In this document: positions 5,471-51,896 of the stretch, piece by piece | Numbering within the stretch: position 1 is the first letter of the stretch | Layout: each line of letters opens with the position of its first letter | Assembly (NCBI GenBank): GCA_019058315.1 | Contig: JAHPZH010000003.1 | Span: 652,451 to 716,450, forward strand | Source: Candidatus Helarchaeota archaeon | GTDB taxonomy: Archaea > Asgardarchaeota > Lokiarchaeia > Helarchaeales > RDOG01 | Direction: 5' to 3' | Length of the DNA stretch: 64,000 bases | Position numbers and translations under genes: made by a program | Notes under the pieces: model-generated | Database searches by the model: none | What the model was told of the DNA's origin: nothing | What the model saw: the letters and a program-made list of their open reading frames with translations, nothing else

Positions 5471-6502
5471 ATGGCAAATGAGAAAGAACAAGACGAAGAT
5501 GCAGTAGAATCTCAAGACATTGAGGATGAAGATGAAGAAATAGAAAAAATGTTAGAAGAATTAGAGGAAGAAGAATTAGAAGAAGAAGGATTAGAGAAAG
5601 AAGAAATAATGGAGACCCAGCCAGAGATTAAAACGGATTTGGAAAAGGATATAGATATAAAAGACATTGAAATTACCTCAGAGATGGAACTCCCTATTCA
5701 TGAACAAGAATCACCACCTAAGACACAAAATTCGACTGAAGAAACATCAATAATGGCTCAGGTTTCAAAAGCTAAAGATTTAGAACAATTAATTGAAACA
5801 GAGGAACAAAAAAGCATTGAAGGTGAGGAATCCTTAATGTCTGATCAAGCACTTGATGAATTAGAAGCCATAGAAGATAAATCAGCTAAAGATCAATTTA
5901 AAGACCTTCATGCATATATTGAAGCCATTTTATTTGAGGTTGGAAAACCTCTTAAAGAATCAGAACTTGTTGACTTATTATTTGAAAAATATAAAGCTGA
6001 TAGAAATAGGATTAGATGGGGGTTAAGAATAGTAATGAGAGCTTTAGAAGCCCAGAATAGTTCAATCCAATTAATAAACCCCACTAAGGATTTTTGGTCT
6101 TTTCAACTTCACAGAGAGCTATCAGATGACTTTTTAGACAAAATAGAGAAATTTATCCCTGAAGAGGAATTTATTTCTAAAAGAGAAACCGTATTTTTAA
6201 CCGAAATAGCTTATAGACAACCAGTTACTACAACAGATATATTAAAGATTTTAGGTGCTGATGGATATGATTATATACGCTCTCTAGAAGAAAAAGATCT
6301 TATATTTATGACAAAAGAAGGGCAATCTAATATCTTAAGAACCACCGAAAAATTTGCACAAATTTTTGGTTTTGATACACAATTAAGAAGTTTAAAACTT
6401 CAACTAGTTTGGAGGCTTAAAAAATTAGCTAGATCCGAAGCAGCAAGAGATAAAGCTACTTTAGCTCTATTAAAGAAAGATAGAGAAAAGTACGAATCTT
6501 AA
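5471..6502 (+). CDS. scpB: second, divergent ScpB paralogue with long acidic N-terminal extension
   Basis: IEAILFEVGKPL; LTEIAYRQPVT; LEEKDLI...RTTEKFAQIFG; about 140 aa Glu/Asp-rich N-terminus. Confidence 0.85.
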   Translation: MANEKEQDEDAVESQDIEDEDEEIEKMLEELEEEELEEEGLEKEEIMETQPEIKTDLEKDIDIKDIEITSEMELPIHEQESPPKTQNSTEETSIMAQVSKAKDLEQLIETEEQKSIEGEESLMSDQALDELEAIEDKSAKDQFKDLHAYIEAILFEVGKPLKESELVDLLFEKYKADRNRIRWGLRIVMRALEAQNSSIQLINPTKDFWSFQLHRELSDDFLDKIEKFIPEEEFISKRETVFLTEIAYRQPVTTTDILKILGADGYDYIRSLEEKDLIFMTKEGQSNILRTTEKFAQIFGFDTQLRSLKLQLVWRLKKLARSEAARDKATLALLKKDREKYES

Positions 6503-6607: not shown

Positions 6608-9600
6608 ATGGAAAAGATGACATTTATCAAACGCATCGATATGACAGGATTTAAGTCATACGGAAGAGGAACTATATCTTTAGGATTTGGTCCTGGATTT
6701 ACGGGAATAATTGGACCAAATGGTTCAGGAAAAAGTAATATAGTAGATGCAATTTCCTATACATTAGGGGAATTGAGCTCGAAAAGTATGCGAGCGAAGG
6801 ATTTAAGGGATCTCATATATTCAGGAACTGGAGGTGATAATCCTGCCGATTTCGCTTCCGTTAATATTGTGTTTGATAATTCCGATAAAAAGATTCCGGT
6901 TCCTTTTGATGAAGTTATGGTACAAAGAGATATAAAAAGAAAGGGAGGAGGTTCCGTTTATAGGTTTAATGGGAAACGATCTACTAGAACTGAGATCATG
7001 GATAAATTAAAGATTGCCAATATTGATGTAAAAGAGGGGTTTAATTTAGTGTTGCAGGGGAGAATTGCAGAACTTGCTGCTATGAATCCCGATGAACGTA
7101 GGGAATTAATTGAGGATTTAGCGGGGACAAATGAATTTGATGAAAAAAAAATTGCGAGTATAAGTGAATTAGAAAAGGCTGAAATAAAACTAAGTGAATT
7201 AGAATTATTAATTAATGAAACCGAGACTAATGTAAAGAGATTGGATAAAGAAAAAAAAGATGTGGAAGAATGGGAGCTAGTTGTAGAACAAATATTTGAT
7301 AATAAAACCCAACTTTTATCTTTTCGACATGGAAATTTAGTTGAAGAATTAAAGGGATTCCAAACCAAAAGTGACGAGTTACTTAAAGAAATAAAGGAAG
7401 TAGAAGAGGAGAAAAATAAAAAAATTAAGATCTTAGACGAAGTAAATAAAAGTATTGAGGATGTCAAAAATAAAATAAATAAAAAACAGACCGACCTTGA
7501 AAATGTTCAAGCAGATATTTCTAATTTAAAATCAACCATTACTGGGCTCAAAAGGGATGTAACACATAGAGAAAAACGAATTAAAGAAATGGAGCAAGAA
7601 CAAGAAGATACTAAATCAAGAATTCAAAATATTAAAAAGAATCAAGACAAATTAGGAAGTGAAGTTACAGATATTGAAAGTAAGTTGGGTGTACTTGGAA
7701 AAAAGAGGGATGAAGAAAGAGCAGAACAAGAAAGATTAAATAAATTGATTCAAAAAAGTCAAACGCAATTTGAAACTCTTCAAACCCGTGCTACGGAAAT
7801 TCAAAAACAAATAGAAATGAAAACTAAAAAATTAAATAATTTAGAAATTCAAAAATCAATGAAATTATCTGGAGCAGAAATAAAACAAAATACATATGAT
7901 TCCAGAAAGCGTGAATTGGAATCACGTAAAAGAACATATAATCAGAATTTAGAATCCCTTAAAGCTTTAGAATTAGAAATAGTTCAATCGAAAGAACTAC
8001 TTCAAGTAGCATCACATAGAGTTGACTCATCAGATTCTAAAAGATCAACATATGAAGAAAGATTAGAACAGTTATATGATTTAAAATCCAAATTGGAAAA
8101 AAACACCTCATCTCTTGAAGCAAAAATTGACACTATTCAGAGTTTTCAAGGAGGAGATACGAATCCTGTAATTAAAAAAATTATGGGAAAAAAGGAAAAA
8201 AATGAAATTGTTGGTATTATCGGCAGATTTGGCGATTTAATAAATCTTGATGAACTTGATCCTAATGATAAAGCAGCACTTATTCCTTATTTGAATACTA
8301 TTATTGTTGATAGCACATTAACTGCTGCTGAAGCAATTCAAATTCTTAAAGATGAGCAAATAGGATATGGTTCTTTTATCCCTCTAGAAGAATTAGGAGA
8401 AATAATAATTGGACAAAATCTTCCATTTAAATTCTTGGAGGATCTTGACAGAAAGATGAAGGCAACGGCATTTATTTTTAATGATACTGTTGTTACTGAA
8501 AATCTTCATTCAGCAATTGATCTATTTATTAAAAATATTGAAGAAAAGAAATATGGAACTCAAATTCTGACTTTACAAGGTGAGAAAATCTCTAGAGAGG
8601 GGATTATTTCTGGTGGTGCTAGTTTAGAATTTGCTGAAACTCAAATATTAGATTTAAAAAAGAAATTAGAAGAACAGCAAGGAGAAGTTGGCAAGATTAG
8701 TGAAGAACAGATTATAACCAAACAAAAACTTGCTAAATTAAATGACTTATTAGCTGAAGTTAAAAGAAAACAAGAAAATGTAAAACAGAATATAAAGAAT
8801 AAACAAGAGAAAATGGATAGTATAACTAAGCTGATTGAGGAAGATAAATTTCATATCAATAGAATTGAGCAAGAATTAGAATCTTTAAAATTGAATATTG
8901 AAGCGATTAATACCTTATCAGCGAATATTGAACGTGAAAAGTCGGAAACTGAAACATCTGTTGCAGTACTTAAAGAAGATAAGAAAGTTATTGACGATGA
9001 GATTGAAAAAACTGAGATGACTAAGCTTTTAGATTCTGTTCGTAAGGTAGAAAAAGAATTATCGAAATTAGAAATTGATTATAGTAAAAATGAAGCTATA
9101 AAGAGTGAAAAATTACAACAGATAAATGATATCCTCGATAAAAATATAAAAGAAAAAGAGTCTCAAGTTCAAAATCTAATCAAAGAAATTGAGCAAGCAA
9201 GAAAAGATATTGAAAAATTTAATAGTGAAAAAAATCAAGCTGAAAAAGATTTAACTGCTAAAACAAAGGGTGAAGAAGATTTTAAAAAGGAAATTCAAGA
9301 ACTTCAAGATTCTATTAGTACAAAGTTAAACGAGATAGAAGCGAAGCGAAATGAAAATACTGCTCTTAATAGAAGAATAGAAAGATTACGTGAACAAGTA
9401 GGTGAAATCAAAGTCAATCAAGAGAGAGTAAAAACAGAATTGAGTAATGTCCAAAAACAGATTGAAGAAGAAGAGATAGAATTGATTCAACTTAAGAAAG
9501 AGGTTGATGAAAAAAAGCTTGAAAGCAAAATTCGAGAACTTTTAGACAGAAAACGACAGCTTGAACCAGTTAATGCCCTTGCTATAAAGCAGTTCCATGA

Positions 9601-10177
9601 AGCAAATCAAAGATACCAAGATTTAAAATCCCGACACGAAGAACTTCAAGAAGAAAGAAAAATTATAGTTGATTTTATCAATAAAATAGAATATGAAAAA
9701 GAAAATGTATTCATGAAAATTTTTAACGAAATTAATAAAGAATTCGGTAAAATCTTCAAAATGATCGCTGGAGGTAATGCTTGGATGGAGTTGGAAAATG
9801 AGGAGAACCCATTTGAAGGTGGAATCACTATTAATGCCGAACCGCATGGTAAAAAAGTAAAATCTGTAAGAGCTATGTCAGGAGGCGAAAAATCATTAAC
9901 TGCATTATCTCTAATTTTTGCAATGCAAAAAGTCGAGCCTTCACCATTCTATATTTTAGATGAGATCGATGCTGCATTAGATGTCATGAATGTGAGACGT
10001 GTAGCAAAAGTAATTGAGAAGATGAGTAAAGAATCTCAATGTATCCTCATTACTCACAGAGATATTGCCATGAGATACGCCAATTTACTTTATGGTGTTA
10101 CAAATATAAAAGGGATCTCAAAAGTGGTTTCTGTTGAATTGTCTGATGAAAGCACACTTCGTGAATTAAGCTCTTAA
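6608..10177 (+). CDS. smc: chromosome segregation protein SMC
   Basis: GFKSY, Walker A GPNGSGKSN, Q-loop LVLQG, coiled coils, hinge GEKISREGIISGG, signature MSGGEKS, Walker B YILDEIDAALD. Confidence 0.97.
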   Translation: MEKMTFIKRIDMTGFKSYGRGTISLGFGPGFTGIIGPNGSGKSNIVDAISYTLGELSSKSMRAKDLRDLIYSGTGGDNPADFASVNIVFDNSDKKIPVPFDEVMVQRDIKRKGGGSVYRFNGKRSTRTEIMDKLKIANIDVKEGFNLVLQGRIAELAAMNPDERRELIEDLAGTNEFDEKKIASISELEKAEIKLSELELLINETETNVKRLDKEKKDVEEWELVVEQIFDNKTQLLSFRHGNLVEELKGFQTKSDELLKEIKEVEEEKNKKIKILDEVNKSIEDVKNKINKKQTDLENVQADISNLKSTITGLKRDVTHREKRIKEMEQEQEDTKSRIQNIKKNQDKLGSEVTDIESKLGVLGKKRDEERAEQERLNKLIQKSQTQFETLQTRATEIQKQIEMKTKKLNNLEIQKSMKLSGAEIKQNTYDSRKRELESRKRTYNQNLESLKALELEIVQSKELLQVASHRVDSSDSKRSTYEERLEQLYDLKSKLEKNTSSLEAKIDTIQSFQGGDTNPVIKKIMGKKEKNEIVGIIGRFGDLINLDELDPNDKAALIPYLNTIIVDSTLTAAEAIQILKDEQIGYGSFIPLEELGEIIIGQNLPFKFLEDLDRKMKATAFIFNDTVVTENLHSAIDLFIKNIEEKKYGTQILTLQGEKISREGIISGGASLEFAETQILDLKKKLEEQQGEVGKISEEQIITKQKLAKLNDLLAEVKRKQENVKQNIKNKQEKMDSITKLIEEDKFHINRIEQELESLKLNIEAINTLSANIEREKSETETSVAVLKEDKKVIDDEIEKTEMTKLLDSVRKVEKELSKLEIDYSKNEAIKSEKLQQINDILDKNIKEKESQVQNLIKEIEQARKDIEKFNSEKNQAEKDLTAKTKGEEDFKKEIQELQDSISTKLNEIEAKRNENTALNRRIERLREQVGEIKVNQERVKTELSNVQKQIEEEEIELIQLKKEVDEKKLESKIRELLDRKRQLEPVNALAIKQFHEANQRYQDLKSRHEELQEERKIIVDFINKIEYEKENVFMKIFNEINKEFGKIFKMIAGGNAWMELENEENPFEGGITINAEPHGKKVKSVRAMSGGEKSLTALSLIFAMQKVEPSPFYILDEIDAALDVMNVRRVAKVIEKMSKESQCILITHRDIAMRYANLLYGVTNIKGISKVVSVELSDESTLRELSS

Positions 10178-12597: not shown

Positions 12598-13155
12598 TTA
12601 TAAACTTTTTAAAGTTTGATTTAATTTATCCTCAGAAAAAATGCTAGTTTTAAAAATTTTTACAGAGAATTTTAGAGATTCAAATTTCTTATTAATCTTC
12701 TCATATAATTCCTGAAATAACTCTTTAAAAATTTTTGAATTTTGTAATTCTGGATCAGATTTATGTAAAAATACAACGAATTTGGGCACTAATTTCTGCA
12801 GTTTTATAACAGAGATTATATCTGAAAAATAACGTATAGCTTCTTCGTATCTATCGGGATCTTGAATATCAATAACATATATTACTGTGTCTACATAACT
12901 AAAGTAATAATCTTTTCGTTTAAAATATTCATCACGAAAGGTAACTTGACCACCGAAATCCCAAACAATGATTTTTTCACTATTTATCTCTAATTCCTCA
13001 ATATTAAGCCCTTTAGTAGGTTTTAAAGTTATAGTCGATTCTGGAGATAATTGTTTTTTTACTATCCTTAATATTGAGGTTTTTCCAGCGTTGTCAAGAC
13101 CTAATAGTATAATTTTTTTGTTAATTTCAGCAGCAGTGTCGTTCATATTGATCAT
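12598..13155 (-). CDS. Arf/Rag-like small GTPase
   Basis: GLDNAGKTS, PTKG, WDFGGQ, HKSD, TSIF. Confidence 0.92.
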   Translation of the reverse strand: MINMNDTAAEINKKIILLGLDNAGKTSILRIVKKQLSPESTITLKPTKGLNIEELEINSEKIIVWDFGGQVTFRDEYFKRKDYYFSYVDTVIYVIDIQDPDRYEEAIRYFSDIISVIKLQKLVPKFVVFLHKSDPELQNSKIFKELFQELYEKINKKFESLKFSVKIFKTSIFSEDKLNQTLKSL

Positions 13156-13388: not shown

Positions 13389-13781
13389 TTAAATACAAAG
13401 ATTTGCAATACAATTATCAAAATTTGATAACTCAGGAATTAGACCTTTTTTTTCAAATGTATAACGTTGATTATTTGAAAACTCATTCAGAAATTCATTC
13501 ATTATTTGTTTAAAATTAGGCAACAGATAGCTTGAAGTATCGTTTTTATCACTTAGAAAAACGAAAATTAATTTATTTTTACGTATAAAATGAAATTTTA
13601 ATGTTTCCGTACAAATATAAGAAATATTTTCACCTATTGAAGTCTTACAAAAACGATCCATTGCGGCAATAAATCCTGAAACGAGTTGTTCATTAGGTGG
13701 AATATTTTTCACTGATTTATTGTATAAACATATACCCGTATTGTATATTACAAAAATTCCTTTGATCATTGAAATCTCCAA
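13389..13781 (-). CDS. stand-alone longin-like domain protein
   Basis: IFVIYNTGICLY...QLVSGFIAAMDRF...FVFLSD pattern. Confidence 0.75.
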   Translation of the reverse strand: MEISMIKGIFVIYNTGICLYNKSVKNIPPNEQLVSGFIAAMDRFCKTSIGENISYICTETLKFHFIRKNKLIFVFLSDKNDTSSYLLPNFKQIMNEFLNEFSNNQRYTFEKKGLIPELSNFDNCIANLCI

Positions 13782-14051: not shown

Positions 14052-14603
14052 TTATAATATCTGAAATTTCTGAAAAATGGTGTAAACAGAAGTTTTGAAA
14101 AACTTTATTGGAATATTCAAAGGTCTAAAGATAGTTTTAATTTTCCCAGTTAGTTGATCGAATAATTTTTCATATTTTTCTGAAGAAAGTAATTCAGGAT
14201 CGAACTTATGAGCGAAAATGATAAATTGTGGAAGAGGTTTTTGTAATTTTACTACCCCACTAATGTTTAATAAATATGTAATAGATTCATCATAACGATC
14301 TGGGTCTTGAATATCAATAACATAAATTAGTTTATTGATATTGCTAAAATAATAATCTTTCCGACGAAAATATTCTTCACGAAATGCTAATTGCCCTCCG
14401 AAATCCCAAACCATAAATTTTGTTCCATCAGATGCAGTAAATTCTTCTATATTTGCCCCTGTTGTTGGTTTCACATTTGCAAACAATTGAGGGGTTAATT
14501 CTTGTTTTAAAGTTTTTAAAATAGTAGTTTTTCCTGCATTATCAAGCCCTATAATAACCATTTTTTGTGTTGGATTAACCGAATCTTCACTCAATAGTTT
14601 CAA
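14052..14603 (-). CDS. Arf/Rag-like small GTPase (paralogue of 12598..13155)
   Basis: GLDNAGKTT, PTTG, WDFGGQ, HKFD, TSVY; shares RKDYYFS and YVIDIQDPDRY with its paralogue. Confidence 0.92.
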   Translation of the reverse strand: MKLLSEDSVNPTQKMVIIGLDNAGKTTILKTLKQELTPQLFANVKPTTGANIEEFTASDGTKFMVWDFGGQLAFREEYFRRKDYYFSNINKLIYVIDIQDPDRYDESITYLLNISGVVKLQKPLPQFIIFAHKFDPELLSSEKYEKLFDQLTGKIKTIFRPLNIPIKFFKTSVYTIFQKFQIL

Positions 14604-44190: not shown

Positions 44191-44277
44191 ATTAAGTTGG
44201 CGGCGATGTCTTGCAGACACATGCTCCATTCAGCTCCAATAACGGTTTCGCATCCTTTCATAGCTTTGCCGCTTAAT
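44191..44277 (-). promoter_or_regulatory. putative SECIS element in selD 3'-UTR
   Basis: GC-rich structured island: outer stem ATTAAG-CGGC/GCCG..CTTAAT, ATGA, ATGC-GAAA-CCGTT...AATGG-A-GCAT, hairpin GTGTC-TGCAA-GACAT. Confidence 0.65.
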
Positions 44278-44278
44278 T

Positions 44279-45325
44279 TTAAGTTTTTTGATACTCTATA
44301 ATTTCAATGTTTTCGTTAATATTAACCTTTCCAGTTCCACGTATTACTTTCCCAATGACATAAGGCTTAACTCCATTTTTCTTCAGAAGATTTATTAAAT
44401 TCTCTAGGTTATCTTTGCTTACAGAAATCAACATCCCACCAGCAGTTTCCGCTGCTTTACCTTCTAATAAAGGATATCCAAAGGTTTCTGCCATTTCTTT
44501 TGTCCCTTTAATAATTGGTAATTTTTCGATTATTATATCAACATTACTTTGCTTTGCCATCTCTTCAGCATGCCCTTTTATTCCAAACCCTGTGACATCA
44601 GTTGCTGCATTGACTGAAATTTCTTGCATGACCTTTGCAACGGGTTTATTTGAAGTTATCATTATATTAACAGCGATATCAATTGCTTTTTCCATTTTTT
44701 CTTGAGAAATCAATTCAAAAATTTCTTTCATAGGTTCGGGTTCTTTTATTAATCTATATGCAGCCATCGCCGGTTGAATTCCTAATGGTTTAGTTAATAA
44801 AAGAAAATCTCCGTCTTTAGCACCATTTAAATAAATAAGTTTATCTAGATCCGCGACAGCGATAGCACAACCACCAAGTAGAGGCCAAGGATTTTGAATT
44901 GATTGTCCTCCAACAATAAGACATCCTTCTTTCACACAAAATTCATGAAATCCTTTTAGCATTTCAGTTGCAATTATTTCAGGCATTTCTGGAGGATAAG
45001 CAATAAGCGAAACCATACTTAATGGATCCGGCCAGCCCATGGTATATATATCATTTAATACATTACATGCACAAATTTTACCTTGAATAACTGGATCGTC
45101 AATGATAGGGGTGAAAACATCAATTGTTTGAATGATTGCTAATTTTTCATTAATTTTTATAACTGCGGAATCGTCACCAATTCCTGCTAGAAGTCGTTCA
45201 TCTTTCACCATTGTTAAACCAGAATTTTTGAGTAATTTGGAAAGGTCATATTGAGGAATTTTACATGATCATCCATGAACTTGAACTGCTTTTGTTAAAC
45301 GGAATTCCTCAGTTACTGAATTCAC
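44279..45325 (-). CDS. selD: selenophosphate synthetase, selenoprotein (UGA at 45269-45271)
   Basis: Frame extends 5' of the listed ORF: FRLTKAVQVHG-U-SCKIP (GUxCK active site); GDDSAV, DVFTPIIDDP, TKPLG, TDVTGFG, ETAGGML; start codon uncertain (GTG at 45325). Confidence 0.95.
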
Positions 45326-45409: not shown

Positions 45410-46546
45410 CTATTTTTGTTCTTTTATCTTTAAAATTGATTTAAGTTCCTCGTGTAGTGATTCTTTCAAAGCATCTTTACTCTTTATTTGGTCAAATTTT
45501 TCAGTACTTTTTAATTCAAGTGTTGTTTCTGGAGAAATTGATTGTATTGATTTTTTAAGAAATTCAATCCATTCAATTGTATTTTGATTGGCTTTTTCGA
45601 GCATTAAAAATCGGGATTCAATTGAAGAGGTCAAGTTAATTAATAGATTTAAAACTTGTTCTATTGAAGATCCCAATTCTTTTCCTTTTAATCCTGCTGA
45701 ACCTGTAATAATTAGATCACGAATACCTTTTATTACAGTTTTACTATCTCCCAAGCTGTTATAAATACTGTAAGGCGTTATTTCATATTCAAAATCTTTA
45801 AATTGAAATATTTCCTTGATTTCTTTTGATAGAAATTCAAATCTTTCTTTAATTTGTTCATCATCTTTGATATCGGGATCCATTTTATTTATTATAATTA
45901 GAAATCTAGGATTTTCTTTCAATAGCTCAACAATATTAGTAATCTCTTTCAGATAATCCAATGAATTCTCAAATTTCGAGGGATCTTGAATATCTATAAC
46001 AAACATTAAAAATACAATATTTAAAAAGTATCTATCTGCATTTTGTATATATTCTTTCCTATAAATCTCTTGTCCACCCATATCCACCATTACATATTTT
46101 AAACCTTTCTTATCATCGAATATTTTTTGATTTGGACCTAATGTTGGTGGTAATTGATCAAATATATCCAATTTTAATTTATCCTGGATAATTCGGAATA
46201 TTGCGGTCTTTCCAGCGTTATCCAATCCTACAATTGAAATTTTTTTAGATCCTAAAAACTCACCAATTTTACCTTCAGAAATCATCTTTGAAATAAACAT
46301 CCATACGTTTACATCATACGGATCAACACCTAACACTTTTAATGTTAGGAACTTGGAGTCATCTATTTCCATTCTTACGAAATCTTCAATTTTTCTTGCT
46401 TTTAATACATTATACATGGTAAAAGCTGCCTTACTACTGACTCCTTTAAAATAAGTCAAGTCTAATTTTAAAATATCTTTTAAATCCTTAATTTTTTCTG
46501 GGATATCTATAATATCTTTAAGTCTTTCACGAATTGATTCATTCAA
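45410..46546 (-). CDS. HhH-like/Arf-like GTPase/coiled-coil protein (array copy 4)
   Basis: LDLTYFKGVSSKAA; GLDNAGKT, PTLG, DMGGQ, NKMD; C-terminal coiled coil and LHEELKSILK. Confidence 0.88.
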   Translation of the reverse strand: MNESIRERLKDIIDIPEKIKDLKDILKLDLTYFKGVSSKAAFTMYNVLKARKIEDFVRMEIDDSKFLTLKVLGVDPYDVNVWMFISKMISEGKIGEFLGSKKISIVGLDNAGKTAIFRIIQDKLKLDIFDQLPPTLGPNQKIFDDKKGLKYVMVDMGGQEIYRKEYIQNADRYFLNIVFLMFVIDIQDPSKFENSLDYLKEITNIVELLKENPRFLIIINKMDPDIKDDEQIKERFEFLSKEIKEIFQFKDFEYEITPYSIYNSLGDSKTVIKGIRDLIITGSAGLKGKELGSSIEQVLNLLINLTSSIESRFLMLEKANQNTIEWIEFLKKSIQSISPETTLELKSTEKFDQIKSKDALKESLHEELKSILKIKEQK

Positions 46547-46577
46547 AAATACCTTCCTCCTTTAATTATTTTTTTGA

Positions 46578-47720
46578 TTATCCTATTTTTCTCATTTTTA
46601 ATAATTCCTTAAGTTCTGCTCGAAGAGATTGTTTTAAAGATTGAGTGTCTTGTAATTTTTTGAATCCTTTAGGGGCTTCTAATTTTGTAGGAAGTTCAGC
46701 TGGGATTTTAGGTTGAGGTGTTTTTGTATACGTACTCCATTCTCTAAAGTTTTGAATTGATTCTTCAATTTTTGAAAATCGTTCTTCCATCGTAGAACCA
46801 AAGGTGAGTACAATATTCATCATTCTTTCTAAGGATTCTATAACAAAATCTTTTAATTCTTGAAAACTTTCTGAATCAGTACTTAAAAAATCACGAATAT
46901 CTCTAACTACAGATTTATTATCCCCCAATGCATTAAAAATACTATAAGTTGTTATTTCATATTGGAAAGTTTTATCTTGTAGTATTTCATCTACCTTTTT
47001 TATTAAGTAGAGAACAGAACTTTGAATATCTTCTTGTTCCTTAATATCCGGATCTACTTTATGTATTATAACTAAAAATTCAGGATTTTCATTTAAAATT
47101 GACATAATTTTTATAATTTCTTCCAGATAGTGTAAAGCTTCCTCAAATTTATCTGGGTCTTGGACGTCAATAACAAAAATTAATAGACCAACTTTAAGAA
47201 AATACTTTTCAGCATGTTGGATATAGTCTTTTCTGTATGCTTGTTGACCACCCATATCTAAGATCATGTATTCAAAGCCAAGTTTTTCAATTACTTCTCT
47301 ATTAACACCTATTGTTGGTGCTAAACTACCAAATAAATCGATATTGACTTTATCTTGCAACACACGCAAAATAGCAGTTTTTCCAGCATTATCAAGACCC
47401 ACAAGAGATATTTTTCTCGGCCCAATATATTCTTCTATTTTACCTTTATTGAGGACTCTTGAAATAAAAACCCATACATTTAGGTCATAAGGATTAATTC
47501 CAAGAAATTTCAAATTCATGAATTCTTCTTCATTGATTTTTCTTTTTGCAAGGTCTTTTATTGTTTTAACATTTAGAACTTTTCGTAATACAGCAGCATC
47601 CTTAATACTGATTCCTTTGATGTGTGATAAATTAAGGTTTAAAATACGTTTAAGGGTTCTGACATTTTTTGGAATCTCAAGAAGATGTTCAAGCTTTTTG
47701 ACTATTGAATAACCCTTCAA
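46578..47720 (-). CDS. HhH-like/Arf-like GTPase/coiled-coil protein (array copy 3)
   Basis: LNLSHIKGISIKDA; GLDNAGKT, PTIG, DMGGQ, HKVD; Pro-rich linker; LRAELKELLKMRKI. Confidence 0.88.
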   Translation of the reverse strand: MKGYSIVKKLEHLLEIPKNVRTLKRILNLNLSHIKGISIKDAAVLRKVLNVKTIKDLAKRKINEEEFMNLKFLGINPYDLNVWVFISRVLNKGKIEEYIGPRKISLVGLDNAGKTAILRVLQDKVNIDLFGSLAPTIGVNREVIEKLGFEYMILDMGGQQAYRKDYIQHAEKYFLKVGLLIFVIDVQDPDKFEEALHYLEEIIKIMSILNENPEFLVIIHKVDPDIKEQEDIQSSVLYLIKKVDEILQDKTFQYEITTYSIFNALGDNKSVVRDIRDFLSTDSESFQELKDFVIESLERMMNIVLTFGSTMEERFSKIEESIQNFREWSTYTKTPQPKIPAELPTKLEAPKGFKKLQDTQSLKQSLRAELKELLKMRKIG

Positions 47721-47846
47721 TTTATCACCAATATATTCATCTAATCTTTACATTTATATAATTCTATATAAAAATTTATTAGAATTTTAAAGACTATTTA
47801 TCATTAGGAACAAACAACTTCTCTTAGTATAATTTAAAAACCTATT

Positions 47847-49043
47847 TTATATAAGATCATCATCTCGGGTCTTTAATATTTCATTTTTTTTCGATTTTAA
47901 TACAGATTTTAGCTCCTTGCGGAGAGCTTCGTTTAAAGTCTTAAAAATTTTTACTTTATCGGTTTCTGGGGAAGGTTTTGTTTCTACGGTGGGTTTGGGG
48001 GTAAATTCGTGAGTTGTACTGAAATGTTCCATCCAATTTCTAAAGTCTTGCATACCCATTTCAAGATTTGATAACCTTTGTTCTACAGTTGAACTAAGAT
48101 TTATCACTATATTTAAAATTCGTTCCATTGAACTTTGTAAAATTACTTCTTCCTTGTGTTTATGCTCAACATCAGGAGATATTACCCCACTAGTTATAAA
48201 TTCACGAATTTCTTTTACTACTGCTTTATTATCTCCAATAAAATTAAATATACTAAAGGTCGTTATGTCAAAAACAAAATCTTTATCTTTAAATATTTCA
48301 ATAACTTTATCCCCTAAGTAATTAATCGAATCTTGAATTTCCTTAAAATCAGAAATGTCAGGATCCACTTTATGAATTACAATTAGAAATTCTGGTTCTT
48401 CTTTTAATAATTCTACAGTTTTAATGACATCTTGTAAATATTTTAATGATTCATCAAATCTTTTCGGATCTTGCACATCTATAACATACATTAAAAATTC
48501 AACTTTAAGAAAATAGCTTTCAGCGTTTTGAATATATTGTTTCCTATAGGCTTCTTGTCCTCCCATATCGAGTATTACATGTTGCATGCCATATCTTTCA
48601 ATTATCTCTCGATTTGCCCCCACCGTTGGTGCTAACTTGCTAAATATATTTACATTGAGTTTATTTTGTATAGCGTTCAATATTGCAGTTTTTCCTGCGT
48701 TATCAAGACCAACAATCAAGGTTTTTGAAGGACCTAAATACTTACTAATTTTTGCTTCAGATATCATTTTAGAGAAAAAAGACCAAATATTTAAATCGAA
48801 TTCGCTTATGCCTAATGATTTTAACATTAAATATTCTGAGTCATTTACCTCTCTTCTTGCCATCTCTTCGATAGTCATAACATGTAATACATTTTTTAAT
48901 GTTGTTGCTATTTTTACATCGATTCCTTTAACATGAATTAAATCTAGTTTTGAAATTTCATTTAGAGTTCCTACTCTTGCTGGAATATCAATAAAATTAC
49001 TTAGTTTTTCCCTCATTGATTTATCTAAAGGTATTAATTCCAA
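47847..49043 (-). CDS. HhH-like/Arf-like GTPase/coiled-coil protein (array copy 2)
   Basis: LDLIHVKGIDVKIA; GLDNAGKT, PTVG, DMGGQ, HKVD; LRKELKSVLK. Confidence 0.88.
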   Translation of the reverse strand: MELIPLDKSMREKLSNFIDIPARVGTLNEISKLDLIHVKGIDVKIATTLKNVLHVMTIEEMARREVNDSEYLMLKSLGISEFDLNIWSFFSKMISEAKISKYLGPSKTLIVGLDNAGKTAILNAIQNKLNVNIFSKLAPTVGANREIIERYGMQHVILDMGGQEAYRKQYIQNAESYFLKVEFLMYVIDVQDPKRFDESLKYLQDVIKTVELLKEEPEFLIVIHKVDPDISDFKEIQDSINYLGDKVIEIFKDKDFVFDITTFSIFNFIGDNKAVVKEIREFITSGVISPDVEHKHKEEVILQSSMERILNIVINLSSTVEQRLSNLEMGMQDFRNWMEHFSTTHEFTPKPTVETKPSPETDKVKIFKTLNEALRKELKSVLKSKKNEILKTRDDDLI

Positions 49044-49099
49044 AAAAATTTACCTCCAATATTATATAATAAGAATTTAAAAAAGGATTTTCTCTTTTT

Positions 49100-50230
49100 T
49101 TAGTCGGTTAATTTTTTCATTTTTAAAATGGATTTAAGTTCATCACGAAGAGCTTGGTTTATTGGGTAATGTTCTTTTATTTTTCCCGATTCTTTAACTT
49201 CTCTAGTAGGAGGCTTCGGTAGAGTTACAGCTTCACCTTTTCTAGTATATTCCATCCAGTGTCTAAAATTTTCCATTCTAGTTTCGATACTCGATAATCT
49301 TTGTTCTACCATTGAACTTAAGTTAATTACAATGTTCATAATGTGTTCTATTGATTCTTTTAACACAGAATCTTCTTTATGCTCATGCGCTTTTCCAGTA
49401 GTTATGAAAGTACGAATTTCTTTTACCATAGTTTTATTATCGCCAATAAGATTAAAGATACTGAAGGTTGTTATTTCAAAATCAAAATTTTTACTTTGTA
49501 ATATTTCATTATACTGATTTTTAAGAACTTGAATTGCATCTTGGGTTTCTTTTTTATCTCTAATATCTGGATCTACTTTATGAATTATCACTAGAATTTC
49601 TGGTTGTTCTTTTAATACTTCTAATAAATTAATAATTTCTAGAAAATAATTTTGGGCCTCTTGAAATCGATTTGGATCTTGAACGTCAATTACAAACATT
49701 ATGAACTCTACATTTAAAAAATAGCGCTCAGCATTTTGAATATATTGTTTTCTATAAGATTCTTGACCCCCCATATCAAGTACTATATGATCCATACCAT
49801 ATTTTTGGATTATCTCGCGACCCACACCTAATGTTGGGCTTAATTTTTCAAAGGTTTCTAGATCTAATTTATTTTGGATTGCTTGGAGTATGGCAGTTTT
49901 ACCTGCATTATCTAGTCCTATAATTAAAGTTTTAGAAGATCCGACTTCGAATTTTCCTTCAAAAATCATTTTACATAAAAATTTCCACAGATTTAAATCA
50001 TATTCGGGAATTCCTAACATTTTAAGCATTAAAAATTCTTCATCATTTATTTTTCTTAAAGCTAACTCTTCAATTGTTACAACATGTAAAACATTTTTTA
50101 AAGTCGTAGCAGTCTTTACATCAATACTCTTAAAATGAATTAAATCAAGTTGTGCAAGTTGTTTTAAAGTCGTAATTGATTCTGGAATGTCAATAACATT
50201 TTCAAGTTTGTTTTTTATAGATTCGTCCAT
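49100..50230 (-). CDS. HhH-like/Arf-like GTPase/coiled-coil protein (array copy 1)
   Basis: LDLIHFKSIDVKTA; GLDNAGKT, PTLG, DMGGQ, HKVD; LPKPP linker; LRDELKSILKMKKL. Confidence 0.88.
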   Translation of the reverse strand: MDESIKNKLENVIDIPESITTLKQLAQLDLIHFKSIDVKTATTLKNVLHVVTIEELALRKINDEEFLMLKMLGIPEYDLNLWKFLCKMIFEGKFEVGSSKTLIIGLDNAGKTAILQAIQNKLDLETFEKLSPTLGVGREIIQKYGMDHIVLDMGGQESYRKQYIQNAERYFLNVEFIMFVIDVQDPNRFQEAQNYFLEIINLLEVLKEQPEILVIIHKVDPDIRDKKETQDAIQVLKNQYNEILQSKNFDFEITTFSIFNLIGDNKTMVKEIRTFITTGKAHEHKEDSVLKESIEHIMNIVINLSSMVEQRLSSIETRMENFRHWMEYTRKGEAVTLPKPPTREVKESGKIKEHYPINQALRDELKSILKMKKLTD

Positions 50231-50257: not shown

Positions 50258-51247
50258 TTATAAATGCTTGTGATTATTATTCTTTTTATTATTGTTATTT
50301 TCTTTCATAAATTTTAATACATTTTCCATAGAAGTCATTCCAGTTCTTGCTCCTACTTTAAGGCAATTTAAAGCCCCAGCAGCATTAGCAAAATTGGCGA
50401 TTTTATCTAAGTCCCAATCCTTTAAATAACCTACGGAAAATGCAGCATTAAATGCATCACCAGCACCAGTTGTATCAATGGGTTTTATATTATATGCAGG
50501 ATAAGTTTTTTGTTCGATTTTATCACCGTTTCTTGTAGAAATAACACAACCATCGCTTCCTAAAGTGACTGCAATAATTTTTATATTAGGTTTTTTTCCT
50601 AGCAAAATCTTTGCGGCAACTGTTGGGTCGTGCTTCCCAGTCAGTTCCATTATTCCCAGTCTTTGGGGAATTAGTATATCGACAAGATCCAAAAATTTTT
50701 CAATCTCATCATAACCGTATTGGACTGCAACTTGTTTTTCTAAATCAAATGAAATAATTATATCAGGATTATCCTTTTTTGAGGCTTTTATTATATATTC
50801 TGAAACATCCTTATGAATGGCTGTAGTATGAATTAATTTTGCACCCTTTATAAGTCTTAAATCAATATCTTCTGGAACCTTGAGCCTTGTTTTAATCATG
50901 TAAGGACTTTGAATAATTACCCGTTCTCCACTTCCTGTAACCATAATAAAATTTACTGCTGAACTGGAATCGTCTTTAATTTGTAATAAAGAAGTGTCAA
51001 CTCTTTCCTTTTCAAAATCCTGTAAAAGGGTTTCCCCAGCTGAATCATTTCCAATTGCACCCACAAAACCTGCTGGGATGCCTAATCGTGCAACGCCTGT
51101 AATATAATTACCTGTTACGCCACCAGGAAGATATACATAGCTTTCTGCATCAACTTTTTCATCGGGTTCTGGGAAATGTTTAATTTTTGCTATCATATCT
51201 AGGGCGCAAGCACCGACACCTAAAATTTCAGCCATTTTTAAGCCCAA
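50258..51247 (-). CDS. PfkB/ribokinase-family carbohydrate kinase
   Basis: PGGVTGNY...ARLG; GAIGND; VTLGSDG; DTTGAGDAFNAAF. Confidence 0.93.
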   Translation of the reverse strand: MGLKMAEILGVGACALDMIAKIKHFPEPDEKVDAESYVYLPGGVTGNYITGVARLGIPAGFVGAIGNDSAGETLLQDFEKERVDTSLLQIKDDSSSAVNFIMVTGSGERVIIQSPYMIKTRLKVPEDIDLRLIKGAKLIHTTAIHKDVSEYIIKASKKDNPDIIISFDLEKQVAVQYGYDEIEKFLDLVDILIPQRLGIMELTGKHDPTVAAKILLGKKPNIKIIAVTLGSDGCVISTRNGDKIEQKTYPAYNIKPIDTTGAGDAFNAAFSVGYLKDWDLDKIANFANAAGALNCLKVGARTGMTSMENVLKFMKENNNNKKNNNHKHL

Positions 51248-51344
51248 TTTTATTATTTTTTAAATGTGTTTTTTGATAATTTTTAATTTATAATGGATTT
51301 TAAAAATATTCCTTCACATATAATTTCAAAAAAATTACAGTTAT

Positions 51345-51896
51345 TTATTCCACAGATGCATGTCTTGCATGGATGTAATCCTCGTCAATCTTTAATTCAT
51401 CCATTATAACTCTTGCTAGTGAATCAAATAGCGCAAATGCAGCAGTATCAAAAAGACTCGTATAGGGAGCTAGACTTTTAGTTTTTTCAACTTTTGTTTT
51501 ACTTTTCAAATCTATGATTATATCAGCTAATTTCCCTATTGTACATTCAGGATTTGAGGTAATTAAAACGAGTTTACCTCCAATTTCTCTAACTTTTTTT
51601 GCGAATGCAACAGTACTAATTGTTTCACCAGATCCTGATATCGCTATTAAAATATCTTTATCCGTAAAGCGGTGTGTAATGGTATCACCAATAAAACAAG
51701 ATTTTACTCCCAAATGCATGAGGCGATGTGCAAATGTTCGTCCCACAAGTCCCGATCTGCCAGCTCCATAAACAAACGTCATTCGACAATAATGAATTAA
51801 GTTAGTTATTCCTTTAATATCATGTTCATCAATTATTTCTGTTAATTTTTTAATATTATCCGCTATTTCAAGTATTGTATCATGAAAATTACCCAT
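51345..51896 (-). CDS. hxlB: 6-phospho-3-hexuloisomerase (SIS domain)
   Basis: YGAGRSGLVG..FAHRLMHLG; ISGSGET; C-terminal RHASVE. Confidence 0.88.
   Translation of the reverse strand: MGNFHDTILEIADNIKKLTEIIDEHDIKGITNLIHYCRMTFVYGAGRSGLVGRTFAHRLMHLGVKSCFIGDTITHRFTDKDILIAISGSGETISTVAFAKKVREIGGKLVLITSNPECTIGKLADIIIDLKSKTKVEKTKSLAPYTSLFDTAAFALFDSLARVIMDELKIDEDYIHARHASVE

What the first reader, a model, noticed from the sequence alone, without database searches (positions are those of the whole stretch)
45410..50230. Tandem array of four small GTPases with an unfamiliar modular architecture (HhH-like / Arf-like G domain / coiled coil / tail helix)
Seen: four co-oriented paralogues of 376-398 aa separated by 31-126 nt. 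Each has a ~95-aa N-terminal module with a helix-hairpin-helix-like pattern (LDL.H.KGI..K.A..L..VL....IEELA), intact G1-G4 motifs, a heptad segment and a conserved last helix. Knowledge: Arf-family GTPases are normally ~180-aa single-domain proteins, and this HhH pattern resembles the RadA/Rad51 N-domain or DUF4332. Inference: retention of four diverged but intact copies in one apparent operon suggests subunits of a hetero-oligomeric GTPase scaffold (septin-like logic, different GTPase class). This is the best candidate for an undescribed system here.
Basis: partly seen in the sequence, partly recalled or inferred. Interest (0 to 1): 0.85.

Follow-up and report, generated by a model that had tools for sequence, protein, structure and literature searches.

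The report
Tandem Rag-like GTPases, Asgard archaeon
Four neighbouring genes of an Asgard archaeon encode related Rag-type GTPase switch proteins with an unusual extra module at each end; the family is widespread in these archaea and already catalogued but unstudied, and three old gene types kept side by side hint, without proof, that they work together.

Summary
Four intact, co-oriented genes lie on the minus strand (376/398/380/378 aa; gaps 56/126/31 nt), all under purifying selection.

Each protein has five parts:
- an N-terminal (HhH)2/DUF4332-like domain (fold supported, modest scores);
- a G domain;
- a roughly five-heptad coiled coil with an RhxxhE motif;
- a floppy linker;
- a basic amphipathic end helix.

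The G domain is not Arf proper. Orthologues of all four genes are listed as 'RagGtr' in a published Asgard GTPase census. The nearest solved structures are Lokiarchaeal 'Rag-like' GTPases, one titled a homotetramer. The Rag roadblock domain is replaced by the helical tail.

The architecture is common: 31 of 31 related genomes have it, including cultured MK-D1, mostly as single dispersed genes. The array is confined to a narrow Helarchaeales lineage. It holds three old clades in fixed A-B-C order, with A duplicated here; one relative has three genes. Clades differ in N-domain charge and coiled-coil core.

Hetero-oligomer formation remains an inference. This scan had already noted the family on other DNA (e1-5393008, e1-5393166).

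Verdict: new variant of a known kind, moderate interest.

The parts
49100..50230 (-). g1 (clade A, copy 1), 376 aa
   Evidence: ORF; Pfam Arf 9e-21 and Gtr1_RagA 1e-17; clade A with 100/100 support; dN/dS 0.13 against the L013 orthologue
47847..49043 (-). g2 (clade A, copy 2; the later duplicate), 398 aa
   Evidence: 61% identical to g1; sister sub-clade within A; dN/dS 0.26, the most relaxed of the four
46578..47720 (-). g3 (clade B), 380 aa, with a strongly basic N-module (+10)
   Evidence: dN/dS 0.09
45410..46546 (-). g4 (clade C), 378 aa, with G4 NKMD and an Asn at a coiled-coil core position
   Evidence: dN/dS 0.11
49937..50230 (-). g1 N-module (aa 1-98), an (HhH)2/DUF4332-like five-helix domain. 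Equivalents: g2 48729-49043, g3 47418-47720, g4 46247-46546
   Evidence: AF2 on the module alone gives pLDDT 92.8 and pTM 0.83; VIA Z 6.5-5.3 to HhH domains; Atlas DUF4332/HHH_5 cluster TM 0.70; coordinates
49427..49936 (-). g1 G domain (aa 99-268). Equivalents: g2 48219-48728, g3 46908-47417, g4 45734-46246
   Evidence: Pfam; PDB profile search gives 8YL2 5e-41 and 8ZLA 3e-36; coordinates
49247..49351 (-). g1 coiled-coil segment (aa ~294-328) with the RhxxhE motif RLSSIE at 49283-49300. Equivalent motifs: g2 48060-48077, g3 46764-46781, g4 45596-45613
   Evidence: AF2 long helix 280-331 at low pLDDT; heptad register; motif in 117 of 118 family members against ~6 in shuffles
49163..49246 (-). 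g1 variable Pro/Lys/Glu/Thr-rich linker (aa ~329-356)
   Evidence: AF2 predicts no secondary structure at 332-356, pLDDT below 50; these columns are not conserved
49109..49162 (-). g1 basic amphipathic end helix (aa 357-374) with the (D/E)ELKxhLKxKK motif. Equivalents: g2 47883-47936, g3 46584-46637, g4 about 45416-45469
   Evidence: Hydrophobic moment 0.51-0.69, at or above the 95th percentile of family 14-mers, net charge mostly +1 to +3; L and K are invariant or nearly so across the family
50258..51896 (-). Upstream syntenic genes: PfkB-family kinase (50258-51247) and SIS-domain protein (51345-51896)
   Evidence: Pfam; the same order occurs in L013 and L014
44279..45211 (-). Downstream syntenic AIRS/SelD-like gene
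   Evidence: Pfam AIRS and AIRS_C; it occupies the same position in L013 and L014

Best explanation
Shown:
- The four genes are paralogues of an Asgard-wide, multidomain small-GTPase family.
- The published census classes its G domain as Rag/Gtr (RagGtr).
- The usual C-terminal roadblock dimerisation domain is replaced by a roughly five-heptad coiled coil carrying an RhxxhE motif, then a flexible linker, then a basic amphipathic end helix.
- An (HhH)2/DUF4332-like domain is added at the N-terminus.
- The array consists of three old paralogue types in fixed order A-B-C, with A duplicated here.
- All four copies are intact, all are under purifying selection, and the types carry type-specific features.

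Inferred mechanism:
- Each protein is a GTP/GDP switch that self-assembles through the coiled coil into dimers or trimers.
- In this lineage the co-encoded A, B and C types probably mix into hetero-oligomers. That would follow the Rag paradigm of paralogue pairs, with a coiled coil taking the place of the roadblock platform.
- The mixed assembly would combine an acidic, a basic and a neutral N-module.
- The end helices, held on floppy arms, would dock the assembly to a membrane or to a conserved protein partner, much as the coiled-coil-plus-amphipathic-helix tail of septin Cdc12 does.

Rough odds for the steps:
- oligomerisation by the coiled coil: 0.7;
- A/B/C hetero-assembly: 0.4;
- end helix binds membrane: 0.4, or a protein partner: 0.4;
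- N-module is a protein-interaction module rather than a DNA binder: 0.6.
For: Identity and class:
- Pfam finds a small-GTPase domain.
- The family profile matches Loki 'RagA-like' 8YL2 at 5e-41 and 'Rag-like' 8ZLA at 3e-36, against 1e-21 for the best Arl. Foldseek ranks the same two structures first.
- The orthologues NVM01192-NVM01195 are listed as 'RagGtr, tree' in Table S3 of 10.1101/2024.02.28.582541.

Roadblock replaced by a helical tail:
- AF2 predicts only helices after residue 258, and Pfam finds nothing there.
- A paralogue in the same window (4221-5381) has the same N-module plus a G domain plus a C-terminal domain. It aligns with 8YL2 through residue 330 and with yeast Gtr1.

Coiled coil:
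- The a/d register is regular over about five heptads.
- RhxxhE occurs after the G domain in 117 of 118 members, against about 6 by chance.
- The motif is described as a trimerisation motif of short coiled coils (PMC5940361).
- The same coil-plus-amphipathic-helix layout occurs in the septin Cdc12 tail (PMC13060782).
- The closest solved relative is titled a homotetramer.

End helix: it has a high hydrophobic moment and net positive charge, and it is conserved from the long-form to the short-form branches.

Paralogue logic:
- Clades A, B and C are each supported at or near 100%, and their order is conserved in L013 (four genes) and L014 (three genes).
- dN/dS is 0.09-0.26 in every module.
- N-module charge is clade-specific: A -1 to -6, B mostly +9 to +12 (P0020 +1), C -1 to +3. 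G4 is clade-specific too: NKxD in C, HKxD elsewhere.
- Coiled-coil core residues are clade-specific.
- An independent tandem triplet has arisen in another lineage, L042.
- A Rag-like operon pair in MK-D1 has been predicted to heterodimerise (PMC10933270).
Against: - Most genomes carry the family as a single or dispersed gene: 69 of 80 loci have one copy, and related genomes hold 1-3 dispersed copies. The basic unit must therefore work without paralogue partners.
- Array copy number varies, 3 versus 4.
- Clade C has a conserved polar Asn at a core 'a' position where A and B have Met or Ile. Coil length also differs by clade. Either feature could favour like-with-like pairing instead of mixing.
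- Many RhxxhE coiled coils are dimers, not trimers.
- The C-terminal helix is modelled with low confidence (pLDDT 40-63).
- The end helix has low mean hydrophobicity, no aromatic residues in the short forms and a conserved acidic pair. That is unusual for a membrane anchor.
- No conserved non-GTPase neighbour points to a partner or pathway.
- Against eukaryotic proteins alone, the G domain scores slightly better with Arl/Arf (5e-12) than with RagA (4e-8). The RagGtr label therefore rests on the published tree, not on a tree built here.
Confidence: 0.5

Rival explanations
1. The paralogues are independent. The array is only a retained tandem duplication. Each protein forms its own homo-oligomer or acts alone on a different target, and adjacency reflects history and shared regulation rather than physical association.
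For: - Single or dispersed copies are the rule elsewhere.
- This genome holds four more dispersed paralogues.
- Copy number differs between relatives.
- Clade-specific core residues, such as the Asn at 'a' in clade C, could enforce self-pairing.
- The closest solved relative is titled a HOMO-tetramer.
Against: - The A-B-C order is kept across genomes whose orthologues are only about 50-56% identical.
- Intergenic gaps are short, 31-126 nt.
- An independent triplet has arisen in another lineage.
- The N-module charges of A (acidic) and B (basic) are complementary.
Confidence: 0.3
2. The proteins are nucleic-acid or chromosome-associated GTPases. The HhH-type N-module, especially the basic clade B version, would bind DNA, and the assembly would act on or tether chromatin, possibly to the membrane through the end helix.
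For: - The N-module has an (HhH)2-type fold and resembles RAD51 N-domains and polymerase thumbs.
- The clade B N-module carries +9 to +12 in four of five members, and some orthologues add a poly-Lys N-terminal extension.
- The paralogue at 4221-5381, which has the same N-module, sits divergently next to ScpB-SMC. That pairing is conserved in all three relatives with an orthologue (44-54% identity by tblastn), while the opposite flank is not conserved.
Against: - The hairpin Gly-h-Gly signature is not conserved. Only two hydrophobic positions are invariant or nearly so in the N-module, and long-form members have 0-2 glycines in the whole module.
- Clade A N-modules are acidic.
- Equally good structural neighbours, NusA AR2 and RNAP alpha-CTD, are protein-binding modules.
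- The array itself has no DNA-related neighbours.
Confidence: 0.15
3. The proteins are true Arf-family GTPases, as the public annotation ('ADP-ribosylation factor-like') and the first reader suggest, and act in Arf-type membrane remodelling.
For: - Pfam Arf is the top or near-top hit.
- G1 GLDNAGKT and G2 PTxG look Arf-like.
- Arl/Arf are the best eukaryotic sequence matches.
Against: - The published tree puts the orthologues in RagGtr, not ArfR or ArfL.
- G4 is HKxD, and the G5 region aligns with the Loki Rag-like proteins.
- There is no N-terminal amphipathic helix; a folded ~95-aa domain sits there instead.
- Tran et al. note that MK-D1 Rag-like GTPases were often mis-annotated as Arf.
Confidence: 0.04
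4. The terminal helix is a WH2-like actin-binding motif (an earlier scan note), which would make these proteins GTPase-linked actin regulators.
For: The tail is a short amphipathic helix followed by a Lys-rich stretch at the end of a Pro-containing linker. Asgard archaea have actin, by general knowledge.
Against: - No WH2 match appeared in a Pfam scan of the tails even at E up to 10.
- The basic residues follow the pattern LKxKK(L), not LKKV/T.
- An earlier follow-up on a related tail in another genome also rejected the WH2 reading (e1-5393166; not independent evidence).
Confidence: 0.02

Closest known systems
Rag/Gtr GTPases (eukaryotic RagA-D, yeast Gtr1/2) and the Asgard 'RagGtr' class
   Same: - The published tree places the orthologues in the RagGtr class.
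- The G4 motif is HKxD and the G5 region is SI(F/Y).
- Paralogues are encoded together, echoing the Rag rule of paralogue pairs.
- A window paralogue with the same N-module still carries the Rag-type C-terminal domain and matches Gtr1.
   Different: - There is no roadblock C-terminal domain; a coiled coil, linker and end helix stand in its place.
- An extra (HhH)2-like N-domain is present.
- G1 and G2 look Arf-like.
- Three paralogue types are involved rather than two.
- No Ragulator or TOR context is present.
Lokiarchaeal Rag-like GTPases with solved structures: LokiRagO (PDB 8YL2, homotetramer) and LokiRagM (PDB 8ZLA, monomer)
   Same: These are the closest G domains by profile (5e-41 and 3e-36) and by Foldseek. 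They share GLDN(A/S)GKT, DxGGQxxYR, VIDxQD and HKxDP. One of them is oligomeric.
   Different: - They are about 28-32% identical.
- They lack the N-module.
- 8YL2 continues into an alpha/beta C-terminal domain, where the array proteins have only helices.
- No paper on these structures was found in the library.
Septin C-terminal extension (yeast Cdc12)
   Same: The layout is the same: a GTPase domain, then a coiled coil with an RhxxhE motif, then an amphipathic helix used for membrane binding. Paralogous subunits assemble together (PMC13060782).
   Different: The G domain belongs to another GTPase family, and Pfam gives no septin match. This is analogy, not homology. Filament formation is not indicated.
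Arf family and Asgard ArfR
   Same: The P-loop (GLDxAGKT) and switch I (PTxG) are similar. Pfam Arf scores 67-78 bits.
   Different: The family is not in the ArfR clade. It has no N-terminal amphipathic helix, and it is about twice as long, with two extra modules.
(HhH)2 domains: DUF4332/HHH_5, RAD51 N-domain, NusA AR2, Y-family polymerase thumb
   Same: The N-module shares the five-helix fold: VIA Z 5.3-6.5, NusA AR2 TM 0.72 (by target), DUF4332/HHH_5 cluster TM 0.70. A profile link to HHH_5/DUF4332 repeat proteins also exists.
   Different: Scores are modest (Z below 8, Foldseek E 0.35). The Gly-h-Gly hairpins are not conserved. The module is fused to a GTPase. DNA binding is unproven.

Membership tests
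Rag/Gtr (RagGtr) GTPases | G domain falls in the RagGtr clade of a Ras-superfamily phylogeny | tested here: met
   This was a look-up, not a tree of my own. The four orthologues in GCA_013375355.1 (NVM01192.1-NVM01195.1) and NVM28125.1, which has the same architecture, are labelled 'RagGtr, tree' in Table S3 of 10.1101/2024.02.28.582541.
Rag/Gtr (RagGtr) GTPases | Sequence is closer to Rag/Gtr than to other small GTPases | tested here: inconclusive
   - Pfam bits for Arf against Gtr1_RagA: 74.5/64.8, 77.6/63.4, 72.5/75.2 and 67.6/59.5.
- PDB: Loki Rag-like 1e-23, Arl 5e-12, human RagA 4e-8.
Rag/Gtr (RagGtr) GTPases | G4 reads HKxD instead of NKxD, with a Rag-type G5 region. That these motifs are typical of Rag is from my own knowledge. 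| tested here: met
   G4 is HKVD in g1-g3 and NKMD in g4 (a clade C trait). G5 is SI(F/Y)N. These regions align with hKfDP and tIy in 8YL2 and 8ZLA.
Rag/Gtr (RagGtr) GTPases | C-terminal roadblock domain that mediates dimerisation | tested here: not met
   AF2 predicts only helices after residue 258. Pfam finds no hit in the tail. The profile alignment to 8YL2 stops at the first helix of its C-terminal domain.
Rag/Gtr (RagGtr) GTPases | Functions as a dimer of two paralogues | not testable with these tools
   This needs biochemistry. Only circumstantial evidence exists: the conserved A-B-C array.
Arf family / ArfR | N-terminal amphipathic helix, and placement in the Arf/ArfR clade | tested here: not met
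   The N-terminus is a folded ~95-aa domain. The orthologues are classed RagGtr, not ArfR or ArfL.
(HhH)2 / DUF4332-type domain | Five-helix fold made of two helix-hairpin-helix units | tested here: met
   - The model has pLDDT 92.8.
- The top structural neighbours are nearly all HhH domains, at modest scores (VIA Z 6.5-5.3; Foldseek best E 0.35).
- An Atlas DUF4332/HHH_5 cluster matches at TM 0.70 over 90 residues.
(HhH)2 / DUF4332-type domain | Gly-h-Gly hairpin signature and DNA binding | tested here: not met
   Each hairpin has at most one Gly (KGI, LGI), and long-form members have 0-2 Gly in the whole module. Only one Pfam HHH_5 hit appeared, below threshold (E 0.036). DNA binding itself cannot be tested here.
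Short coiled coils with the RhxxhE trimerisation motif | R-h-x-x-h-E in register g-a-b-c-d-e within a heptad repeat | tested here: met
   The motif occurs in 117 of 118 members against about 6 in shuffles, and the register is regular. The oligomer state is not determined, and many proteins with this motif are dimers.
Septins | Septin-type G domain | tested here: not met
   No septin family appears among the Pfam hits. Only the tail layout is analogous.
WH2 actin-binding motif | Match to the WH2 profile, or an LKK(T/V) motif after a short amphipathic helix | tested here: inconclusive
   No WH2 hit appeared in the Pfam scan of the tails at E up to 10. The pattern is LKxKK(L). Short motifs are hard to exclude by profile.

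The most novel reading that the evidence does not exclude
The A, B and C proteins form a defined hetero-trimer through their RhxxhE coiled coils. This would be a Rag-derived, septin-like GTP-switched scaffold. Its basic HhH module (clade B) would bind DNA or chromatin, and its amphipathic end helices would bind membrane. On this reading it is an archaeal GTPase tether between chromosome and membrane, related to the HhH-Rag-like paralogue that is conserved next to SMC-ScpB.
Probability: 0.1. Interest if true: 0.85.

Novelty: new variant of a known kind. Interest (0 to 1): 0.55.

Why it matters
Asgard small GTPases are central to ideas about how eukaryotic membrane and signalling systems arose, and Rag/Gtr is one of the few classes in which eukaryotic proteins nest among Asgard ones.

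This family shows a Rag-class G domain that has swapped its roadblock dimerisation platform for a coiled coil plus amphipathic helix, and has gained an HhH-type head. The tail layout was otherwise known from septins. In the papers I could read, these sequences are listed but the architecture is not discussed.

The family occurs in every related genome searched, including the cultured Promethearchaeum syntrophicum MK-D1, so it can be tested directly. The conserved A-B-C array offers a natural system for asking whether paralogue hetero-assembly, a hallmark of Rags and septins, already existed in archaea.

Tried and rejected
- Complex prediction of g1+g3+g4 (G domain plus tail, three chains): score 0.26, below the 0.32 mark, so no verdict. 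It is not used as evidence either way.
- Sequencing runs: no RNA holder is listed, only DNA sediment metagenomes. This says nothing about expression or operon structure.
- The search for related loci with g3 alone in genome contigs found no relative. The alignment query worked, but its best hit is only 33% identical, so the array lineage is barely sampled among species representatives.
- Free-standing tail proteins (lead from e1-5393166): none were found among short proteins with g1's tail. None exist in this genome either; all eight tail matches lie in 380-410 aa ORFs.
- Pfam on the isolated N- and C-modules gave nothing significant.
- NCBIfam gave only generic small-GTPase hits below their cut-offs.
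- The Atlas feature search of the N-module gave no usable hit.
- Neighbourhood analysis found no informative conserved partner. The window array sits between PfkB/SIS and SelD. The long-form orthologue sits between TFB and a PAP2 phosphatase in 52 of 70 loci.
- No publication on LokiRagO or LokiRagM was found in the library.
- Klinger et al. 2016, which defined ArfL, is not held in the library.
- The MIM1 (ESCRT-III) reading of the end helix was rejected by eye. Only the Leu spacing fits; the acidic and Arg positions do not.

Full report
OBSERVATION

The window holds four co-oriented ORFs on the minus strand: 49100-50230 (g1, 376 aa), 47847-49043 (g2, 398 aa), 46578-47720 (g3, 380 aa) and 45410-46546 (g4, 378 aa). 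They are separated by 56, 126 and 31 nt. They are 46-61% identical to g1.

All four keep G1 GLDNAGKT, G2 PTxG, G3 DMGGQ, G4 HKVD (NKMD in g4) and G5 SI(F/Y)N. Pfam sees a small-GTPase domain at about residues 100-260, with Arf and Gtr1_RagA scoring almost equally. It finds nothing significant in the ~97-aa head or the ~110-aa tail.

Contigs from independent sediment metagenomes (two other studies) cover the locus at 85-99% identity and bridge gene junctions.

ORGANISM AND FAMILY SIZE

The window lies in a 5.79-Mb, 12-contig genome. Its closest public relatives are labelled Helarchaeota or Promethearchaeota.

The family is not rare. The large protein collection holds 171 clusters at E<=1e-3 in the searched length range, the higher-ranked ones at 377-423 aa and labelled Loki-, Hel-, Thor-, Hermod- or Hodarchaeota. 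All 31 related genomes searched have full-length matches, and so does cultured Promethearchaeum syntrophicum MK-D1, with one full-architecture gene. This genome has eight genes carrying the tail module: the four array genes plus four dispersed ones.

G DOMAIN

By profile, the closest solved proteins are two Lokiarchaeal entries: 8YL2 ('homo-tetrameric RagA-like small GTPase, LokiRagO', 5e-41) and 8ZLA ('monomeric Rag-like, LokiRagM', 3e-36). The best Arl scores 1e-21. Foldseek ranks the same two entries first.

Table S3 of Vargova et al. (10.1101/2024.02.28.582541) covers GCA_013375355.1, the genome that carries the orthologous four-gene array (L013). It lists all four orthologues, NVM01192.1-NVM01195.1, as 'RagGtr' assigned by tree. 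It gives the same label to another Helarchaeales protein with this exact architecture. Tran et al. (PMC10933270) note that Rag-like GTPases are the second-largest class in MK-D1 and were often annotated as Arf.

I could not build an independent tree with eukaryotic references. My own similarity tests are ambiguous. Pfam Arf and Gtr1_RagA score about equally, and among eukaryotic structures Arl scores 5e-12 against 4e-8 for RagA. The motifs are a mosaic: G1 and G2 look Arf-like, while G4 and G5 look Rag-like. 'Arf-like' is thus the annotation-level reading and RagGtr is the phylogenetic one.

N-MODULE

Folded alone with a 28-sequence alignment, the N-module gives a confident five-helix model (pLDDT 92.8, pTM 0.83).

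- Foldseek finds no significant PDB hit (best E 0.35). Nearly every top row is nonetheless an HhH domain: NusA AR2 (TM 0.72 by target, rmsd 2.1 A), Y-family polymerase thumbs, the RAD51 N-domain and AlkA.
- An independent aligner gives Z 6.5 for a Dpo4-type thumb, 6.2 and 5.8 for RAD51-family N-domains, 5.8 for NusA AR2 and 5.3 for RNAP alpha-CTD. All are below the Z of about 8 at which such matches become compelling.
- In the ESM Atlas, the nearest non-GTPase cluster is an archaeal DUF4332/HHH_5 family (TM 0.70 over 90 residues).
- An exhaustive profile search with the N-module finds, besides the GTPases, proteins with 2-8 tandem copies of its first ~40-residue unit. Several of these carry HHH_5 or DUF4332 signals.

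DNA binding does not follow from it. The Gly-h-Gly hairpins are not conserved, long-form members have 0-2 glycines in the whole module, and only two hydrophobic positions are invariant or nearly so. NusA AR2 and alpha-CTD are protein-binding examples of the same fold.

TAIL

AF2 predicts only helices after the G domain, including a long helix at 280-331 with low confidence, then an unstructured stretch, then a terminal helix at 357-374. No roadblock fold is present.

The long helix has a regular a/d register over about five heptads. It carries R-h-x-x-h-E in 117 of 118 family members, against about 6 in shuffled tails, always 40-70 residues from the C-terminus. This is the motif published as a trimerisation motif of short coiled coils (PMC5940361), although many proteins with it are dimers (PMC13060782). 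An earlier scan note (e1-5470903) had pointed to it.

The end helix is strongly amphipathic (hydrophobic moment 0.51-0.69, at or above the 95th percentile) and mostly net basic. It also has low mean hydrophobicity and a conserved acidic pair. It could therefore be a membrane-binding helix or a protein-docking helix.

The septin Cdc12 tail has the same order of parts: a coiled coil with RhxxhE, then an amphipathic helix that binds membrane.

A fifth gene in the window (4221-5381, minus strand) links the family to classical Rag architecture. It has the same N-module and a G domain that prefers Gtr1_RagA (6.9e-29). Its C-terminal domain aligns with 8YL2 through residue 330, and the protein aligns with yeast Gtr1 at 1e-15.

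THE ARRAY

A maximum-likelihood tree of 41 sequences (LG+C20) gives three strongly supported clades:

- A: g1 and g2, each with its L013 orthologue, plus the first gene of L014.
- B: g3, L013 gene 3 and L014 gene 2.
- C: g4, L013 gene 4 and L014 gene 3.

L013 has four genes and L014 three. In both, the array lies between SIS-PfkB and an AIRS/SelD-like gene, in the order A-(A)-B-C. The A/B/C split is therefore older than the divergence of these genomes, whose orthologues are about 50-56% identical. The g1/g2 split is a later duplication within A.

All four genes are under purifying selection in all three modules (dN/dS 0.09-0.26; g2 is the most relaxed).

The clades have fixed differences:

- N-module net charge is -1 to -6 in A, mostly +9 to +12 in B (P0020 +1), and -1 to +3 in C.
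- G4 is NKxD in C and HKxD elsewhere.
- Clade C has a conserved Asn at the core 'a' position after RhxxhE (6 of 6), where the other clades have Met, Ile or Val.
- Helix length after the conserved Trp differs by clade.

Outside this lineage the family is usually a single gene per locus (69 of 80 loci). One long-form lineage (L042) has an independently derived tandem triplet, and mixed clusters of Rag-like GTPases occur in the sister genus.

MECHANISM

What is shown: the identity, the anatomy, conservation, orthology and selection.

What is inferred: the coiled coil drives self-assembly, and in this lineage the A, B and C types mix, which would be the Rag paralogue-pair rule carried out with a different dimerisation device. 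Also inferred is that the end helix on its floppy arm attaches the assembly to membrane or to a conserved partner, and that the N-modules recruit further components.

The main counter-arguments are these. Single-copy genomes show that the unit works without paralogue partners. Copy number varies between relatives. The clade-specific core residues could enforce self-pairing rather than mixing.

No conserved neighbour reveals a pathway. The array is flanked by sugar-metabolism genes and SelD. The main long-form orthologue sits between TFB and a PAP2 phosphatase in 52 of 70 loci.

A DNA-related role for the HhH head is a minority reading. It gains some weight from the conserved divergent pairing of the 4221-5381 paralogue with ScpB-SMC in all three relatives that have an orthologue.

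COMPARISON AND NOVELTY

The proteins belong, by published tree, to the Asgard RagGtr class. They fail one defining Rag feature, the roadblock C-terminal domain, and add two modules.

The sequences are catalogued. The MK-D1 homologue was presumably among the 74 GTPases modelled by Tran et al.. The papers I could read describe only longin and roadblock fusions. I found no description of the HhH head, the RhxxhE coil plus end-helix tail, or the A-B-C array. This scan had noted the same family on other DNA (e1-5393008, e1-5393166, e1-5460829).

I rate it a new variant of a known kind, of moderate interest. Its value lies in being widespread, present in a cultured Asgard archaeon, and offering a natural test of paralogue hetero-assembly in an archaeal Rag-class GTPase.

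Noticed in passing
window 4221-5381 (-), with 5471-6502 (+) and 6608-10177 (+): A fifth GTPase has the same HhH-like N-module, a Gtr1/RagA-preferring G domain and a Rag-type C-terminal domain (it aligns with 8YL2 to residue 330 and with yeast Gtr1). It lies divergently next to ScpB and SMC. This pairing is conserved in all three relatives that have an orthologue (G001, G005 and G003; 44-54% identity by tblastn), while the opposite flank is not conserved. That suggests a functional link between an HhH-Rag-like GTPase and condensin.
   Followed up: partly
window 12598-13155 (-), 13389-13781 (-), 14052-14603 (-): Two bare 183-185-aa G domains of the same GLDNAGKT/HKxD type flank a 130-aa gene with a weak longin match (Fuz_longin_1, 4e-4). 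This forms a GTPase-longin-GTPase triplet, also flagged by scan note e1-5470900.
   Followed up: partly
L042:4142-8254 (Promethearchaeota LW40_45, 700-kb contig): An independently derived tandem triplet of long-form family genes (418, 413 and 422 aa) sits at the conserved TFB/PHP locus. Two of the genes are recent sisters (64% identical). The middle gene belongs to another sub-clade and lacks the strict RhxxhE match.
   Followed up: partly
L022 and 51 other loci (for example L022:1673-11376): The main long-form orthologue has strongly conserved synteny in 52 of 70 loci. The order is an unannotated ~1250-aa protein with no Pfam match, a divergent TFIIB-type gene, the GTPase, a convergent PAP2 phosphatase only about 12 nt away, PHP, and acetyl-CoA hydrolase/GNAT.
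   Followed up: partly
proteins P0129-P0139, P0143, P0135: Proteins with 2-8 tandem copies of the ~40-residue first HhH-like unit of the N-module. They include a 4261-aa protein with 8 copies, LysM-fused forms and an LRR-containing form. Some carry HHH_5/DUF4332 signals. This looks like an undescribed repeat family related to the GTPase head.
   Followed up: partly
L007 (G000:C1:454050-455225, -): A dispersed full-architecture paralogue has a 397-aa open frame with no ATG, GTG or TTG before residue 68, although the N-module is encoded upstream of that point. The cause could be a non-canonical start or a sequence error.
   Followed up: no
window 44279-45211 (-) and 44191-44277: The syntenic downstream AIRS-family gene is read by other scan notes (e1-5470922, e1-5470905) as a SelD selenoprotein with an in-frame UGA and a 3' SECIS-like element. 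I confirmed only the AIRS/AIRS_C domains and the synteny.
   Followed up: no
L015:5946-9402 (G001:C83): The sister genus has a mixed three-gene cluster on one strand: an N-module+G+roadblock-type protein (406 aa, tail ...PWLENFF, like the window's gene at 4221-5381), a 321-aa GTPase, and a full-architecture member (416 aa).
   Followed up: partly
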